Assembly (NCBI RefSeq): GCF_009914755.1
Contig: NC_060935.1
Length of the DNA: 64,000 nucleotides
Reading direction: 5' to 3' (one strand)
Origin: the human T2T-CHM13v2.0 reference genome, Homo sapiens
The notes beneath the pieces are model-generated. The model ran no database searches. It was not told where the DNA came from and saw nothing but the letters and a program-made list of their open reading frames with translations. This document shows positions 3,300 through 59,259 of the stretch, piece after piece. Position 1 is the first letter of the stretch. The number at the start of each line of letters is the position of its first letter. The translations under genes and the position numbers were made by a program.

Positions 3300-3700
3300 T
3301 ATCAATACATTTTTTTCAAACCCTGTTAACTCTCCCTTCAAAATATCCCAATTGGATCCTTCTCACTACAATCTTGTTACCCCCTGGCCTACTCTAATAG
3401 TCTCCTGCAAAGTCTCTCCACTCATATTTTGGCCTTAATAATGTTACTTCATGAAGTAGCCCAGACGATCTTTTGAAAATCTTTTTAATATTATACCACT
3501 CTTCTACTCAAAAACCCCATGGTGGATTTCTATTCTACACTCAATAAAATGCTATCTTTCTACCTTGGCATACAAGACCCTGGATGACCAGGATCCAGGC
3601 TACCTCCCCAAATCCATCCCTTACAATTGTCCACATTTATCCTGCTCCAGACAGTTTTGACACTCATCAAATATACAATGTGCTTTTCCATATCCTTAAT
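3300..3700 (+). mobile_element. L2 fragment
   Basis: cactcttctactcaaaaacccc...caataaaat...taccttggcatacaagaccctggatgacc resembles L2 3' region. Confidence 0.55.
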
Positions 3701-4117
3701 TTCCTCTATTTTTGTAGACACTTATTTCAGAGATTAGAAGCCATTTATTTCTACAATAATCGTCAATATTGTGGAAATGTGTATTGTAAGTTTAATATTT
3801 TATTCATTCAATTGAAAAATGTTTATATGACACCTACATTGTATTATGCCTTTCAAATAAAGTAAACTCCCAGCCACCACAGAATGTTCACAAACTCATT
3901 CAGGTTTAGGGTCTAGGCCAGGAGTAATTATCAGAGGAGAAATACTAGTCTTAACCAAGGAATCACCTTTTCACCATTAGTCACCTACTTTTCCAAATAG
4001 AATTATGCCTCCTACGGTGATAAGATAGATAATAACTCTATTTTAATCTATTCATGACAAGTATTGTATGAATACTAGCCAAAAACTTCTACATTTTCTT
4101 CTCAATGATATTGAACT

Positions 4118-7128: not shown

Positions 7129-7203
7129 TATGCTCAATAAAATCCAGTATCCCTACCTTGGCCTGTATGCTCAATAAAATCCAATAATCCCTACCTTGGC
7201 CTA
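7129..7203. repeat. 37/38-bp tandem duplication inside an L2 fragment
   Basis: tatgctcaataaaatccagtatccctaccttggcctg / tatgctcaataaaatccaataatccctaccttggccta. Confidence 0.9.
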
Positions 7204-8339
7204 CAAGATCTTAGATGACTGGGATCCAGGAAACCTATTCAGCTAATTTCCTACAATTCTCTATGTTTACCTGCTCAAGGCTTTTTACTAGTCCTCAAAT
7301 ATTCAAACTGCTTTTGCATCTTTTTAGTTCTATCTATCTTTTGCAGATGCCAATATCAGTAATCATAAGCAGTTTACCTCTAAATTCATGCTAAATATTG
7401 TGGAAAGGTGTACTATAAGTTCAATCTTTCATTTATTCATTCAACCACCAAGTGTTAATTGAACACATACATTGTGTCACACCAATCAAATAAGATAGAC
7501 TCCCAGGCATCACCAAGCATCTACTAACTCAATTCATCTCAGGATCTATACCAGGGGTCATTTTATCAGAGGACTGAAGTCTTGATGCTGTCCAAGAAAT
7601 CACCTTTTCACAATGAGTCTCCTACTTCTCTAGGTGGAGGTATAACTTTTTGGGATATATCATGGTTGCTGACTTAACTTTTCTATTTTTTAAATATACT
7701 CATGACAAGTATCATATAAAACCTAACCAGCAACTTTGCACCAGCAAAAGTTTTTCAACATTTCAATTCTTACAAAATCAAGTGATATAATTTCCTATGT
7801 AGCAAAAAATTCACACATCTGCAAAGCTTGGTTTCACTACCACCTGTTAAAATTTTACCTTTGGGAAGCTTATTTATGATTTGAAAAACATATTACCTCA
7901 CTCAAAGAGCTGGAAGTCTCTCTTCAATCCAATATGCACACAGAAGACAAAAAGCTGTATCATTCCATGGTATATTTGAAATCATATGGCCATGTCTGTC
8001 CATTGTCTTCAGAGTTTCTAAGTATTTCAGAAAATTATGACTTGCATTGTAGAACTATTTTAAAGAAATTCCATGGTGCAAACGGAAAATTAGAACTTTT
8101 CATGTTAGGATAATTTATTAAAAATACAAACAAATCCTATGTCTACATAAGAAGATAGTAATTAGCCTTTTTAAGGGGGAAATTTTTCTCCTGTAACTTC
8201 TTTTCTACTAATTTCAATAAAGAATAACTGCCATTCCAATGTTTATACCATCTCACTTTCTTGTCTTCCTGTGGCCAGGCATTCATGCTTGAAATTTGGA
8301 GAGGAAATTCTGTTTCTTTTTTCCATTGGTAGTAATGCA

Positions 8340-11914
<3,575 letters not shown>

Positions 11915-13639
11915 GAGGAGGAAATTCTTGTGCCTTTTTTATATCATGTGGTAAACCTAATAAAACATCTTCTGAAATAATTAGCCCTTAAAAGGATGAT
12001 AGTATCTTCTACCTGACAGGGGCAAATATTATTGAAGACTTTGTACCTTATAAGCACATTAATCATGGAGTTTTGGAATTGGATTCTGTTCAAGACTGAT
12101 TTTTGCTTAATTAAGTTCACCGGGATTTTCCACATATTTTTAAAGAACATTTGCATGTAGAGATATTGTCAGATCAATCACATAACTAGGGTCAGAAAGA
12201 TGTAACAAGGGAAGAAAAAACAACCATTATAGTAGGATTGCCAAAGAAGAATAAAATATCAGCCTAGCCACTTAGAAGATTAATTTATCATATTTTCACC
12301 ACTTTGCAATAGCAGGCTTTTTTCCTTTTATCTAATTTCCATTTTTTCTGCCTACAAGTGTGGGTTTGGATATGTTTTTAAAATATTTTATTTAGTTGTA
12401 ATAACTATTTATCTATGCATTTATTATTCTAAAAAATTGTTATGAGTATCCTTTTCATGCCAAGTTCTATGCCATAAGCTTAAGATACAATAGTTAATGA
12501 AACAGAAAAAAAAACAACAGCATAAAAGTCCTGCCTACATTAACTTTATATCTTCTAAGAAAGTAAGGAAACAATTTAATAAATTATAATCTATGATCAG
12601 TATTTAAAATACTGTGTATTGTTATGAAAAATAAAAGTGAGATATTACTGTAAAGAAGGTAATCAGAGGTCTTTTTAAATGGTGATACTTAGCTGAGGTC
12701 CAAAGGAAAAAATATTGCTCCATGGAAAATATTGTTACATGTGGAAAGCTCCAATATTTAAAGAGCTGAGCAAGTGCAAGTCAACAGAAGGTCTTAGTGC
12801 CTGAAAGGAAAAGGAAAAGAGAATGGACAGAACAAACTGAGGTTGAAGGGATGGACAGAAGCCAAGCCCTGCAGGGCAGTATAGATCTTGGTAAGGAATT
12901 TGTATTTCATTTAAAGTTCTTTTTAAAAGAAAGTAATGGGGACTTATAGTCTAGCATGTAAAGAGCTTAGAAGTCACCACTGTACCCTAACAACAAGTAA
13001 AAAGCTGAACAAACTAAAATATCAACAATTCATCTTAAATCCATCACAGAAGTGAGCTCACAGCGCAAACTGCTGCCCTCAAAATTGCAGAGATAGACAG
13101 GCAGATAGAGAGAATCACACCTTCCCTGAGCAGAAACCCACAAGCAGAAACCCCACAAGAACCTGTGCCAAGGAGGGTAGATATAGGTAGGAAAAACCTG
13201 AACTTAATTGATGAACTTCTTAATGGAGAAGGCTGAAAAATAAAAACTCTAGGGGAATCAGTCAAGGTGGGGCAGGGCAGAGGGTCTCTCACCTTTTGTG
13301 AGTTTTAACTTCATGATCCCTACCTGATACTCACAGAAGATGTTAGGAAAAGACCTGTCCACATGTTAAATAAACTTTTTACAAAATATATCCAAACCCA
13401 CACTAATGGGAAAAAAATCAAGTATTAGATAAAAGGAAAATAATTGCTATGGCAAAGTAGGGAAATAAGTGATAAATTCATCTTCCTGGAGATGGGGAAA
13501 AACATTTTTAAATATCCACAGTATTCTGTTCTTCTTAACAAGGCTGGCCCTCAGAAGAACCTATTGTTAGCCACACCCTAACTTGCTGGGGTTTTATTAG
13601 AGCCTAACCTACTTGGAGTAAATGAAATACCCAATCATA

Positions 13640-22996: not shown

Positions 22997-30710
<7,714 letters not shown>

Positions 30711-31081
30711 AAGGAGGGAAAGAAAAACAACAGCATTTGGAGTCAAGTCCTTTAAACTGGCTGCCATTAATTTCATGCCCTCAGTGCTCTAGATCTCAAG
30801 CAACCAATAACATTTTTCCAAAAATGGTTTCATATTAGATGAAAACACAGCAGCTCTTTCTGTAGCATGAGTTGACAGGGAAACTACATGTGGTGCCCAC
30901 TCTGGAATTATGCCACCTTGCCATTTATGTGGCATTCAGCTTTCTTAGAAACCTGGATTCAGATAGGAAAAAAGGACTCTCACAGGCTTAAGTTTTAAAT
31001 ATAGAGCATTCAATTCCCCATTCAGGATGGGTATTTTTCAACCATGTCTCTCCAGAATATCTGCTTCTAAGACAGTCTTTT

Positions 31082-31175
31082 CATCAAAGGAGATAATTAA
31101 TTCCTGGGAGAGAAAGCAACAGCTACAAGACAAGGTCTCTGAATCTTTATAGAAACCTCTTTAAATATACATGCA
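31082..31175 (+). promoter_or_regulatory. Putative OR4C13 promoter core
   Basis: TAATTA (31094) adjacent to O/E-like TTCCTGGGAG (31101), TATA-like tttaaata ~31160, ~2.6 kb upstream of the ATG, conserved in the paralogous copy. Confidence 0.6.
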
Positions 31176-31314
31176 GTACAAGGTAAAAATGTTTTTTGTT
31201 GTTGTTGTTCACATCTCCAGAGCAAAATTCATCATGAATTGAGTGACTCATTTTCATGTATTTCTTCCACAGTTTCTTCGTCTTACCCTGCGGGGACCAG
31301 AGCCATGTAAAGAT

Positions 31315-31319
<5 letters not shown>

Positions 31320-31371
<52 letters not shown>
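31320..31371. repeat. (GT)n microsatellite, ~26 units
   Basis: Perfect TG run. Confidence 0.98.
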
Positions 31372-31374
<3 letters not shown>

Positions 31375-32159
31375 ATATTCAGTCTTTAAGCTAGAAGAAA
31401 ATATTTAGACTTACAAACAGACTTTCTTAACAACTGTTGATTTGATATTGAATCATCTGAATAAGCTCTTTTGAAGTGTGAAATACCTTTCACATTGAAG
31501 CTTACTTATTCCAAGAAAAGATAATTTCAAATAAGATTGTGTCTGAGCACACCTATACATCATTAAGATCATCAAAGACTCTAAGTTTTTCAATAGTGCT
31601 GAAGCTTATGAAAGATTGTTACTTTCTATATAGAGTAATCGGTATTTTTCAGCACTTTTCAAATAGAGTAATAGAGTCTTGCATTCTCACTCCAATTATT
31701 CAAAAGGTAGTTGGTAAATATCATTAACCTAATTTGACAGTTGAAATATTTGAGGCTTATAGAGATTAAGCAATTTGTAGAACCCATCTCTCTGATATCG
31801 GGTACCATGTTTTGCCATGAGACACCTCCTTAGTGAATGAGACAAGTTATGAGGACTAAAACAAAATTTAAATACACTTCACACACACAAAAGACATAAA
31901 TATGAATATTAAATGGCAAATCATCAGCTGATTAGTCCAAGCACAAACATGGAGAAGCTTTACTGGGATCACTTGCTATGAATAATATAAAGCCCTGTAA
32001 AAGGAAAATTGGAGACCTTTCTTTATGAGCTTAATGTGTGGTCAAATGTTTCTCTGTATTATATTGATCACATTGTCAATTTATCCTGTCTCCTAGGCTT
32101 ATACAGCCATAAAAATAAATGAAAGTCCTGTATATGTCCCTAACAGTAGGGTAGATATA

Positions 32160-33678: not shown

Positions 33679-33692
33679 TGTTTTCTTTTCAG
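33679..33692 (+). promoter_or_regulatory. Putative splice acceptor of the OR4C13 coding exon
   Basis: tgttttcttttcAG|G, 29 nt upstream of the ATG. Confidence 0.65.
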
Positions 33693-33721
33693 GTAATGTA
33701 ATTAACCATCATTTGAAATAC

Positions 33722-34651
33722 ATGGCGAATAGAAACAATGTGACAGAGTTTATTCTATTGGGGCTTACAGAGAATCCAAAAATGCAGAAAATCATATTTG
33801 TTGTGTTTTCTGTCATCTACATCAACGCCATGATAGGAAATGTGCTCATTGTGGTCACCATCACTGCCAGCCCATCACTGAGATCCCCCATGTACTTTTT
33901 CCTGGCCTATCTCTCCTTTATTGATGCCTGCTATTCCTCTGTCAATACCCCTAAGCTGATCACAGATTCACTCTATGAAAACAAGACTATCTTATTCAAT
34001 GGATGTATGACTCAAGTCTTTGGAGAACATTTTTTCAGAGGTGTTGAGGTCATCCTACTTACTGTAATGGCCTATGACCACTATGTGGCCATCTGCAAGC
34101 CCTTGCACTATACCACCATCATGAAGCAGCATGTTTGTAGCCTGCTAGTGGGAGTGTCATGGGTAGGAGGCTTTCTTCATGCAACCATACAGATCCTCTT
34201 CATCTGTCAATTACCTTTCTGTGGTCCTAATGTCATAGATCACTTTATGTGTGATCTCTACACTTTGATCAATCTTGCCTGCACTAATACCCACACTCTA
34301 GGACTCTTCATTGCTGCCAACAGTGGGTTCATATGCCTGTTAAACTGTCTCTTGCTCCTGGTCTCCTGCGTGGTCATACTGTACTCCTTAAAGACTCACA
34401 GCTTAGAGGCAAGGCACGAAGCCCTCTCTACCTGTGTCTCCCACATCACAGTTGTCATCTTATCCTTTATACCCTGCATATTTGTGTACATGAGACCTCC
34501 AGCTACTTTACCCATTGATAAAGCAGTTGCTGTATTCTACACTATGATAACTTCTATGTTAAACCCCTTAATCTACACCTTGAGGAATGCTCAAATGAAA
34601 AATGCCATTAGGAAATTGTGTAGTAGGAAAGCTATTTCAAGTGTCAAATAA
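33722..34651 (+). CDS. OR4C13: Olfactory receptor 4C13, 309 aa
   Basis: [10 protein letters not shown] (N-glycosylation site), [45 protein letters not shown]. The first ATG is at 33722; the ORF track start is an upstream GTG. Confidence 0.93.
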
Positions 34652-47049: not shown

Positions 47050-47435
47050 TGTTGGGAGCAGGCCCCCAAAAATCTGGCCATAAATTGGCCCCAAAACTGG
47101 CCATAAACAAAATCTCTGCAGCACTGTAACATGTTGATAATGGCCCTAATGCCCAAGCTGGAAGGTTGTGGGTTTACAGGAATGAGGGCAAAGAACACCT
47201 GGCCCGCCCAGGGTGGAAAACCACTTAAAGACATTCTTAAGCCACAAACAATAGTATGAGCAATCTATGCCTTAAAGACATGCTTCTGCTGCAGTTAACA
47301 AGCCCAACCTATTCCTTTAATTCGGCCCACCCCTTCGTTTCCCATAAGGGATACTTTCAGTTAATTTAATATCTATAGAAACAGTGCTAATGACTTGTTA
47401 GCTGTTTATAAATATGTGGGTAACTCTCTGTTCAG
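47050..47435 (+). mobile_element. MER9 (HERV-K9/HML-3) LTR, 3'-truncated
   Basis: Begins tgttgggagcaggcccccaaaatctggccataaattggccccaaaactggcc. Confidence 0.85.
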
Positions 47436-50588
<3,153 letters not shown>

Positions 50589-52388
50589 GGAAACAAAAAA
50601 GGAAAAAAATTGGTTGAACAAAATTCAAAATAATAAAAATTATATTCAACAAACACACAGCCAACAGTACACTGGATGGGATACTGTTTAAAGCATTCCC
50701 CTTTAAGAACTGCAACAAGACAAGGATGCCCACTTTCAACACTCCTACTCAATATAGTTGGTACTAGAAGTCATAGCTAGAAAGAGAAATAAAACTTATC
50801 CAAATTGGAAAATAGGAAGTTAAATTATTTCTGTTGACTGATAATATGATCTTATACCAAAAAACAAAAAACAAAACAAAAATAAAAAAACTTCTCCAAA
50901 AGACTCCTAGATCTCACAAGTGACTTCATTAATGTTTCAGGATACAAAATTGACATGCAAAAATCAGTAGCATTTTTATATACCAATAACAATCATGCTG
51001 AGAACTAAATCAAGAAGTGAATCCTATTTACAATAGCTGCAAAAAGAATAAAATACATACAAATAAACTTAACCACGGAGGTGAAAGATCTCTACAAGGA
51101 GAATTACAAAACACTGATGACACAATCATAGATGACACAAACAAACAAACAAAAATCCTATGCTCATGGATTGTAGACTAAATACTGTTAAGGTGGCAAG
51201 CAATCTATAGATTCAATGCAGTTTCTATCAAATTACCAATGCCATTTTTCACAGAATTGGGAAAAATCCTAGAATTCATATGGAACTAAAAATGACCCTG
51301 AATAGCCAAGGCAATCCTAAGCAAAAAGAACAAAGCTGGAGGCATTACATTACCTGATTTTAAATTATACTCCAAGTCTATAATAACTAAAACAGCATGG
51401 CACTGATATAAAATAGACACATAGATCAATGGAACAGAATAGAGAACCCAGAAATAAAGCCACTTACCTATAACCAACTGATTTTCAACAAAGGTGATAA
51501 AAATATGCACTGAGGGAAGGACACCCTATTCAATAAATGATGCTGGGAAAAGTGGATAGCCATATACAGAAGAATAAATATGGACCCATATCTCTCACTA
51601 TGTAAGAAAATTAACACAAGATGGATAAAAAGACTTAAGTGTAAGACCTGAAACTATAAAGATCATAGAAGAAAACCTAAGAAAAGCTCTTCTGGACATT
51701 GGCCTAGGCAAAAAAATTATGACCAAGTCCTCAAAATTAAACACAACAAAAATAGATAAATGGGACTTAATAAAATTAAATAGCTTCTGCACAGCAAAAT
51801 AATTAACAGAATAAACAATTTAAAACTTGGAGAAAATATTTGCAAATTAAGCATCTGACAAAAGGATAGTATCAAGAATCTACAAGGAACTCAAATAAGA
51901 AAAATAATAATAATAATCCCATTTAAAAGTGGGAAAAGGACATAAACAGGCATTTTTCCAAAAAAAAAAAAGACATACAAGCAGCCAACACACAAGAAAA
52001 AGTGCTTAACACCACTGATCATCAGAGAAATATAAATTAAAGCCACAATGAAATTCCATCTTACAGCAGTCAGAATGGCTATTATTAAAAAGTCAAAAAC
52101 AACAGGTAATATACACTATTGCTAGGAATAAAATTAATAAAACCTGCATGAAAAACAGAGGGAGATTTATCAAAGAACTAAAAGTAGTACTGCCCTTTGA
52201 TACAGCAATCCCAATACTGGGTATCCACCCAAAGAAAAAGACATCATTCTATCAAAATGATACCTGCACTACGTTTTTAGCAGCACTATTCACAATAGTA
52301 AAGACATGGAATCAACCATCAACAGATGATGGATAAAGAAAATGTGAGATATATAGATAGATATCACAAATGTGAGATATATATACAA

Positions 52389-56570: not shown

Positions 56571-57376
56571 TTAAATGGCCACAATTAGTTTCATGCCCTC
56601 ACTGCTCTAGATCTCAAGCAACCATTAGCAGGTTTCCATAAAAAGGTGTAATGTTGATTTTTTAAAAAAAGAAGCCTCCTGTGACGTGAATCAACAAAGA
56701 AACTACATCACAGGTCCACATACAAGTTACACTACCTTGCTACTCACACAGCATTCAGCATTCTTAACAACACAGGTTCAGATAGAGAAAGAGGACTCAT
56801 AGGATTAGGTTCCAAGTATAAAGAATGAAATTCCTCATTCAGGAATTGTTTTGTTTTGTTTTATTATTCCCAAACTTGTCTCTCCAGAATACTACTTCTG
56901 TGGCAAAGTTTTTCCATCAAAGGAGATAATTAATTCCTAGGAGAGAAAGCAGCAGCTATAAAATAAGATCCCTGAATCTTTACGGAAACCTCTTTAAATA
57001 TTCATGCAGTACAAGACAGAAATGTTTTTCTTGTTCACTCATCCACAGCAAGATTAATCACAGGCAAAGTGATCCATACATAACTGTTTCCTCCACACCT
57101 TTTGCCTCTTGCACTGTGGAACCAGAGCTATACATAATCAATTCTTCATGGTGTTTCCAGTGAATCGATTTTAATTCAAGTCCCAGGTTTTCTGTGAAAA
57201 TTTTTGAGACTTAGGCCAGATAAAAAGATTTATACTCATAAGAAAACTTTCTTTATTGAATTATAACTGATATACCAAAAACTACACATTTAATGTGTAC
57301 AGTTTTTTAACAACTGTGATTTAACATTGAATTATCTGAATAGACATAGACCTGAGGGGTTATAAAAGGATTCCTA

Positions 57377-58189
<813 letters not shown>

Positions 58190-58591
58190 TCAGTGCAGTA
58201 TGGCCATGATTATTAATTTGCTCATTCATTCAGCAATTATTTACTGAACCCCCAACTTGCGTGCCAGCCACCATGAGAGACACTGAGCTTATAAAGTCTT
58301 GTAAATTGTAAGATATGAAGCTAGAGAGATAGGAAAAGAGAATATCAAGAAGGTGCTTATAGTTGTGTTAAGACTTAACACTAATGACTATGGGAGAAAC
58401 AGGGAAAGTATATTTAAGCTAGTGAGTAATGCAGTTAGATTTTAATTTTATAATGATAATCCTAACTACAGTATGTACAATGGATTGATGGATCAAGACT
58501 GGAAGCAGGAGAGCACCTAGGGGTTATTGTAATTATTTCAGTGTGAAAGGCTGGAGGCCTCAGCCCTGGTGTTGCCAGTAAGGACGCAGAA

Positions 58592-59010
58592 TGTGGTGGA
58601 CACTATTGTGTCCAGCTCAAATCCCCTTCACCAGGCCAGTGCACAAGTGCCCCAGCTACTGTGGGTGTGGGCTGCCAACAGCTCACAGCCTTGCCCTTTT
58701 CTGGACAATTGCACCAGATAAAATGGGAGCTGCATCACTTAGGGTATTTTGTTCCCTCTCCCGGAGCCCACCAGCGATGATTGACTGGAATAGGGTTTAA
58801 GAGGTTAGTTCCTTTGTCTCAAGGTGGAAGCAGTTCTGTAGTACAATGTATACCTCAGAGCTCCCGGGGCTCCAGGCTAGAGACAGATTAGTTGAGACCA
58901 CATCCTTCCTTCCCCTACTATTGTATGTTTCCTTCAGTCTTTTCCCCTTATAAATCACGTTTATTAAAATTCCCATATCATCCTCTGAGCCTAGAGAAAT
59001 CAAATTAACA
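58592..59010 (+). mobile_element. LTR16-like LTR (paralogue of 37387-37830)
   Basis: ccagctcaaat...aacagctcacagcc...ctggacaattgcacca...taaatcac. Confidence 0.6.
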
Positions 59011-59259
59011 TGGAGAGATATAGAAGGTTTCGAAGAATATTTTTGAATTCTAAACAAAAGAACTTGATATAGGATGAAGATTAGAGAGAGAGAAGTCACA
59101 GATGAAACTTGGGCCCTGGCTTAGATCACTGGATGGAAGGAAGAGAGAGAAGATTAATGAGGTTTTGAATACATTGAATGATGTTCAAGTCTCAATGTAG
59201 TAATAAATATTACACACATAGGTAATCCTAGGACCTGTCATCAGAAACAAGACCTGGAG

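What the first reader, a model, noticed from the sequence alone, without database searches (positions are those of the whole stretch)
56915..57015. Near-invariant homeodomain + O/E core in the geneless copy
Seen: catcaaaggagataattaattcct(g/a)ggagagaaagca is 36/37 identical between 31082-31118 and 56915-56951, while flanks are visibly more diverged. The downstream gaaacctctttaaatat(a/t)catgcagtacaag is also kept. The core has TAATTA abutting an O/E-like TTCCT(G/A)GGAG, plus a TCF/LEF-type ATCAAAG. Known: Lhx2/Emx2 homeodomain and Ebf (O/E) sites define OR promoters, and adjacent Lhx2-Ebf composites mark OR enhancers. Inference: either the CDS loss was recent or the orphan element is still constrained, possibly as an enhancer.
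Basis: partly seen in the sequence, partly recalled or inferred. Interest (0 to 1): 0.7.

Follow-up and report, generated by a model that had tools for sequence, protein, structure and literature searches.

The report
Leftover promoter of deleted smell gene
This stretch is likely the start switch (promoter) of an odorant-receptor gene whose coding part was deleted from this spot but survives in two sister copies of the region; its good preservation is what inheritance alone would give, so it is most likely an ordinary relic rather than a new enhancer.

Summary
In detail: 56915-56951 matches 31082-31118 at 36/37, against 66% flanks (permutation 9 of 20,000). The window is one of three 92-94% identical chr11 duplication blocks. 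In the other two, this element is followed 3.6-3.8 kb later by OR4C46 (intact) or OR4C10P. Here a 6.5-kb deletion at 57343/57344 removed the splice donor and coding exon. The homeodomain + O/E core also lies upstream of OR4C12 and its paralogues: 8 of 9 copies precede an OR4C coding sequence, and mouse orthologues start transcription at matching distances. It is therefore likely an old OR4C promoter motif. The orphan's branch carries only about 3% change, so zero changes in 37 bp is unremarkable (P 0.29), and pseudogene promoters kept the core too. Constraint after gene loss is neither shown nor excluded. The chimp gene table suggests the deletion is over about 6 My old. The core fits the published Lhx2/Ebf composite pattern with 1-bp spacing, but that loose pattern has 198 hits in the window. 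An enhancer role like the mouse P element stays possible (about 10%). Side finding: OR4C13 lacks the donor its four paralogous units keep.

The parts
56571..57060 (+). Promoter-homology block of the deleted OR4C46/OR4C10P-type gene (unit B)
   Evidence: 72% identical to 30752-31234; 94-96% to the same element upstream of OR4C46 and OR4C10P over 56850-57060
56590..56627 (+). Second conserved block upstream of the core; function untested
   Evidence: 35/37 identical to unit A
56915..56951 (+). Near-invariant core
   Evidence: 36/37 against 31082-31118; identical in all three B copies
56916..56922 (+).
   Evidence: Present in 5 of 9 copies; changed in the OR4C9P copy; absent from the 3 OR4C12-type copies
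56927..56932 (+). Homeodomain site TAATTA (predicted Lhx2/Emx2 site)
   Evidence: Invariant in 9 of 9 copies
56934..56943 (+). O/E (Ebf)-like site one base after the homeodomain hexamer; together they fit the published composite pattern (56927-56946)
   Evidence: Pattern from the methods of PMC11643329, matched. B copies carry TTCCTAGGAG, A copies TTCCTGGGAG, C copies TCCCTGGGAG
56993..57020 (+). TATA-like TTTAAATA (56993-57000) and predicted transcription start (about 57017-57020); inferred
   Evidence: Mouse Olfr1257/1258 exon 1 is 359 bp; the conserved donor lies 449-452 bp after TAATTA in A units, which puts the start about 90 bp after TAATTA
57343..57344 (.). Junction of a deletion of about 6.5 kb (2-bp AG microhomology) that removed the predicted exon-1 donor, the intron and the coding exon
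   Evidence: 6,466 and 6,672 bp are present at this point in the two sister blocks; the donor lies 122-125 bp beyond the junction
57377..57713 (+). Young Alu insertion (AluYb8-type; label recalled) with a clean 13-bp target-site duplication, 33 bp from the junction; a separate event
   Evidence: 39 other loci at 99% among 40 scored of 2,150 candidates; 3 of 287 differences to each of 7 fetched hits
31082..31118 (+). Paralogous core, predicted promoter of OR4C13 (unit A), 2,628 bp before the ATG
31580..31586 (+). Place where OR4C13 lacks the canonical AAG|GTAAGT donor kept by the four paralogous units
   Evidence: Alignment, donor scan
33690..34651 (+). OR4C13 coding exon, with a predicted acceptor 29 nt before the ATG as in mouse Olfr1257/1258

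Best explanation
The element is likely the orphaned promoter of an OR4C46/OR4C10P-type odorant-receptor gene: a 6.5-kb deletion removed that gene's coding exon from this one copy of a triplicated block, and the core is likely intact by inheritance rather than by a new job. Shown: the three blocks, the deletion and its junction, the gene behind the element in the sister blocks, and the same core upstream of eight OR4C coding sequences. Inferred: the core was held by purifying selection as an Lhx2/Emx2 + Ebf site about 90 bp before the start while genes were attached, and it has had too little time since the deletion to decay. It would now behave like a pseudogene promoter: usually silent and, if ever chosen, yielding only a non-coding transcript that runs from a truncated exon 1 into the Alu.
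For: Six A/B copies in the genome, in three blocks 92-94% identical. Sister B units are followed by OR4C46 (intact 309-aa ORF) and OR4C10P; the names were assigned by matching gene spacing to the hg38 table. Deletion of 6,466/6,672 bp. The same core lies upstream of OR4C12 and two paralogues, where only about 150 bp aligns at 65-67% (3 of 11 fetched 10-kb loci hit). Or4c10 and Or4c12 are separate genes in mouse, dog and cow, so the motif is old. Core-to-ATG distances are 2.5-2.6 kb (A), 3.6-3.8 kb (B) and 4.2 kb (OR4C12), against mouse start-to-ATG distances of 2.4, 2.5 and 4.55 kb. The orphan branch background is 162 of 4,970 non-CpG sites (3.3%), so 1.2 changes are expected in the core and P(0)=0.29. 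The three pseudogene A/B promoters carry 1, 0 and 0 core changes.
Against: The orphan branch has fewer changes around the core than background: 0 of 99 non-CpG sites in the finding (about P 0.04 at 3.3%, my arithmetic), or 1 of 101 with CpG sites (16% of background windows). In 56895-57060 there is 1 change in 166 sites, matched by only 1.7% of background windows, though that window was chosen after the fact (Fisher P 0.09 with polarised changes). This fits a late deletion but also continued constraint. No human 5' exon is annotated for any of these genes in the tables read, so the promoter call rests on mouse orthologues and motif position. The two OR4C12-type pseudogene copies lie 10.7 kb from their ATG. 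No chromatin data were seen.
Confidence: 0.75

Rival explanations
1. The orphan promoter has been kept as a local enhancer for OR4C12, OR4C13 or neighbours, as the mouse P element resembles the Olfr713 (P3) promoter.
For: The core fits the composite pattern with 1-bp spacing, like the Sfaktiria probe. Composites are enriched in enhancers relative to OR promoters (passages). The P element is a precedent (passage). There is a mild deficit of changes on the orphan branch. The deletion appears shared with chimp, so the element has likely been gene-less for over about 6 My.
Against: The same composite sits in all 9 copies, 8 of them in promoter position, so it is not an acquired feature. The loose pattern hits 198 times in the window. 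There is one composite and two homeodomain hexamers in 400 bp, and no extended H/P 13-mer. The B-type O/E site is further from the palindromic consensus than the C-type one. No significant constraint on the core (P 0.29).
Confidence: 0.1
2. The orphan is still an active promoter that neurons can choose. It would make a non-coding RNA through the Alu towards the 3' end of OR4C12 (antisense) and act as a null choice that forces switching.
For: The homeodomain, O/E and TATA-like sites and the predicted start are intact. Candidate donors (58116) and poly(A) signals (from 58963) lie downstream.
Against: No transcript is annotated here. OR4C46 and OR4C12 are barely detected (3 of 12 samples each) and OR4C13 in 0 of 12 in the table read. 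It needs no selection and would be a minor variant of pseudogene choice.
Confidence: 0.1
3. Gene conversion between units A and B, not selection, made the core near-identical.
For: The A and B coding sequences look converted long ago: 88.6% identical, with 12 of 108 four-fold sites differing, against 70-75% identity in flanking blocks. The promoter-proximal identity is similar (91/101).
Against: The G/A difference in the core sorts strictly by unit type in all three blocks, so there was no conversion at that site after the block duplication. The motif is also kept in the far older OR4C12-type copies, whose coding sequence is 70% identical.
Confidence: 0.05

Closest known systems
Class II odorant-receptor promoters with homeodomain and O/E sites (PMC3247239, passages)
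   Same: Homeodomain + O/E sites and a TATA-like site just before a predicted start; a non-coding exon 1 a few kb upstream of a single coding exon, as in mouse Olfr1257/1258/1259.
   Different: The coding exon and predicted donor are deleted, and the two sites abut in the composite geometry said to be depleted from OR promoters (passage).
Greek Island enhancers and the Lhx2/Ebf composite motif (PMC5608512; PMC11643329)
   Same: One match to the published pattern with 1-bp spacing.
   Different: The element is a paralogue of gene promoters. Binding and accessibility were not tested, and the HOMER matrix score could not be computed.
Mouse P element, an enhancer similar to the Olfr713 (P3) promoter (PMC6744719 passage; PMC7804114 passage)
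   Same: A gene-less sequence homologous to a nearby OR promoter.
   Different: P is described as an enhancer in those passages and carries the extended 13-bp homeodomain motif. This element lacks that motif, has no functional data, and arose by deletion of its gene.

Membership tests
OR promoter (class II) | Homeodomain and O/E sites close together | tested here: met
   TAATTA invariant and an O/E-like site in 9 of 9 copies
OR promoter (class II) | Lies upstream of, and in the same orientation as, an OR coding exon | tested here: met
   8 of 9 copies; the orphan's gene is present in both sister blocks. In the window itself the gene is deleted.
OR promoter (class II) | Sites lie within about 200 bp of a mapped transcription start | tested here: inconclusive
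   Start inferred about 90 bp downstream from mouse exon-1 length and the conserved donor; no human 5' exon in the tables read
Greek Island enhancer | Composite Lhx2/Ebf motif with 1-bp spacing | tested here: met
   Matches the published fuzznuc pattern, but the pattern is loose (198 hits in 64 kb)
Greek Island enhancer | Composite matrix score above 10 | not testable with these tools
   The matrix is a figure; the supplements read give scores and probes only
Greek Island enhancer | Lhx2 and Ebf co-binding and open chromatin in mature olfactory neurons | not testable with these tools
   No chromatin data reachable; a literature search listed no human data for this place
Greek Island enhancer | Constraint independent of an attached gene | tested here: inconclusive
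   P(0 changes in core)=0.29; mild deficit over 100-166 bp; deletion date only bracketed
H/P-type element | Extended 13-bp homeodomain motif (sequence as given in PMC7804114) | tested here: not met
   None in 56700-57100 or 30870-31270

The most novel reading that the evidence does not exclude
A human/chimp OR promoter that carries a Greek-Island-type composite lost its gene over 6 My ago and now serves as a local enhancer or a gene-less decoy choice for the OR4C cluster. It would be a datable promoter-to-enhancer conversion, with its gene-bearing twin (the OR4C46 promoter, identical core) as a built-in control.
Probability: 0.1. Interest if true: 0.6.

Novelty: new member of a known kind. Interest (0 to 1): 0.22.

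Why it matters
As a relic it matters little, but it adds three details not seen in the tables and listings read. A third OR4C46/OR4C10P-type gene was deleted outright next to OR4C13, a loss that pseudogene catalogues cannot list. The likely promoters of OR4C13, OR4C46 and OR4C12 are located, although these genes have only single-exon models in the annotation given and the tables read. And this promoter family carries the composite geometry usually tied to enhancers. If the orphan proved active, the pair of orphan and OR4C46 promoter would test whether context alone turns an OR promoter into an enhancer.

Tried and rejected
Alu-mediated deletion: rejected, because the Alu has a clean target-site duplication and lies 33 bp from the junction. 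AAG|GTAAAA at 31183 as the exon-1 donor, lost in B: rejected, because it is missing in all B copies and in one A copy and falls at the predicted start; the shared donor lies 449-541 bp after the core. A stricter composite pattern of my own found only the element's copies, but it was written after seeing the core, so it is not counted as evidence. A genome-wide 18-mer scan gave 6 exact hits, all known copies, and 44 scattered one-mismatch hits (18 hits for the reversed control); none of the 44 is on chr11. Eight other fetched 10-kb loci near OR4C genes had no homologous block. The chronic-cough GWAS signal mapped to OR4C12/OR4C13 is at hg19 11:49790181, about 200 kb from this element, so it was not linked. 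The human olfactory transcriptome table shows only floor values for the three genes. Searches listed no paper describing this element (listings only; subscription journals are not covered). PMC4721658 was seen as a listing only. Earlier scan findings were not available.

Full report
Observation. Self-BLAST shows it inside an old duplicated unit: 30752-31234 matches 56571-57060 at 72%, and 36514-37924 matches 57700-59109 at 70%. Over 826 aligned columns identity is 66%; a 36/37 window arose in 9 of 20,000 permutations and 91/101 in 0 of 5,000. A second block near 56590 reaches 35/37. The local conservation is real.

Context. A search of the genome found six copies, three like the OR4C13 copy (A) and three like the orphan (B). 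They lie in three blocks 92-94% identical. In the two sister blocks a coding sequence follows B after 3,571 and 3,783 bp: an intact 309-aa ORF near 54.5 Mb and a frameshifted one near 48.6 Mb. Matching gene spacing to the hg38 table of PMC7055050 (supplement rows) names the triplets OR4C7P/OR4C46/OR4C50P and OR4C9P/OR4C10P/OR4C2P, against OR4C13/none/OR4C12 here. The window lacks 6,466 or 6,672 bp at 57343/57344, with AG microhomology. A young Alu 33 bp away has its own target-site duplication and 99% identity to 39 other loci among 40 scored; the AluYb8 label is recalled.

Age of the loss. The deletion postdates the block duplication, because both sister blocks keep the gene. The OR4C13-to-OR4C12 ATG spacing is 30,073 here and 30,078 in hg38. 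In the PanTro4 table of PMC7160942 it is 30,991, with no OR listed between the two genes. Without the Alu, about 29.7 kb is expected if the segment is deleted and about 36.2 kb if not, so chimp likely shares the loss. This rests on a draft assembly, and 1.3 kb of the spacing is unexplained.

What the element is. The same core was found in 3 of 11 further 10-kb loci: upstream of OR4C12 (4,177 bp) and of its two pseudogene paralogues (10.7 kb), where only about 150 bp aligns at 65-67%. GAGATAATTAAT is invariant in 9 of 9 copies and is followed by an O/E-like site. Mouse Olfr1257, Olfr1258 (Or4c10) and Olfr1259 (Or4c12) start 2.4, 2.5 and 4.55 kb before their ATG. The first two have a 359-bp exon 1 and a last acceptor 29 nt before the ATG. 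The human A and B units have a candidate acceptor 29 nt before the ATG, and four of them share a canonical donor 449-541 bp after TAATTA. For A this puts the start about 90 bp after TAATTA, just past a TATA-like site. This is the OR promoter layout described in PMC3247239 (passages). The promoter call is an inference, since no human 5' exon was found in the tables read.

Constraint after gene loss. In three-way alignments the orphan branch differs at 162 of 4,970 non-CpG background sites (3.3%, which includes the branch to the sister pair). In the promoter alignment 20 such differences polarised to the orphan, 8 to the sister pair and 6 could not be polarised. 1.2 changes are expected in 37 bp; none has P 0.29, and 32% of background windows also have none. 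Over all six A/B branches the core has 1 change against 4.6 expected (P 0.06). The pseudogene promoters keep the core too (1, 0 and 0 changes). Against my reading: the finding's 99 non-CpG sites have no orphan change (about P 0.04), and a post-hoc 166-bp window has one (1.7% of background windows; Fisher P 0.09). The region was picked for its identity, and the branch includes time with a gene attached, so a late deletion explains this as well as continued selection does.

Composite motif. PMC5608512 (passages and supplements 2 and 7) and PMC11643329 (passages) define the composite as Lhx2 and Ebf sites 1 bp apart, enriched in enhancers over promoters. The core matches the published pattern once in each copy, with the same register as the Sfaktiria probe, but the pattern has 198 hits in the window. 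All nine copies share the geometry, so it was inherited from a promoter. The P element is the precedent for a promoter-like enhancer (PMC6744719 and PMC7804114, passages), but its 13-bp motif is absent here.

Gene conversion. The A and B coding sequences were probably homogenised long ago (88.6% identity; 12 of 108 four-fold sites differ, against 70-75% identity in flanking blocks). In the core, however, the one diagnostic base sorts by unit type in all blocks, and the motif persists in the much older OR4C12 lineage, so selection is the simpler cause.

Verdict. This is likely an orphaned OR4C promoter left by a dated gene deletion (0.75). An enhancer role (0.10), an active gene-less promoter (0.10) and conversion (0.05) remain as rivals. 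Four literature searches (listings only) showed no description of this element. Subscription papers and bioRxiv supplements with human olfactory enhancer maps could not be seen and may bear on the enhancer question. Interest 0.22.

Noticed in passing
window 31580-31586: OR4C13, an intact ORF, lacks the canonical AAG|GTAAGT donor kept by the OR4C7P, OR4C9P, OR4C46 and OR4C10P units (about 6 bp missing). It has zero expression in 12 of 12 olfactory samples in PMC7055050 file 7, where OR4C12 and OR4C46 are low but non-zero in 3 of 12 each. It may be a regulatory pseudogene or use another donor (a weaker candidate lies at 31707); whether the change is fixed is unknown.
   Followed up: partly
window 33722-34651 against L013/L014 (OR4C46): A and B coding sequences are 88.6% identical, with 12 of 108 four-fold sites differing, while flanking blocks are 70-75% identical; likely old gene conversion predating the block duplication.
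   Followed up: partly
window 57377-57713: Young AluYb8-type insertion (label recalled) 33 bp from the deletion junction. hg38 spacing suggests it is present there too; polymorphism untested.
   Followed up: partly
L011/L012 and L017/L018 (OR4C9P, OR4C7P); L008 (OR4C10P): OR4C9P and OR4C7P share a 2-bp deletion near codon 29, and OR4C10P has a 1-bp insertion in the same T-rich run, a likely slippage hotspot.
   Followed up: no
window 8303-11915, 26839-30537, 47430-50668: Large repeat copies 90-92% identical to each other, likely L1 (label recalled). The one at 26839-30537 ends about 550 bp before the OR4C13 core and is absent from both sister blocks.
   Followed up: no
window 31319-31372: A (GT)n microsatellite inside the predicted exon 1 of OR4C13, absent from the paralogous A units.
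   Followed up: no
L033:3868-4017 (minus strand): Predicted OR4C12 promoter, 4,177 bp before its ATG and just outside the window, with a near-consensus O/E site in composite spacing.
   Followed up: partly
window 3540-4088 and 7170-7736: A 69% identical direct repeat pair around OR4R3P, not examined.
   Followed up: no
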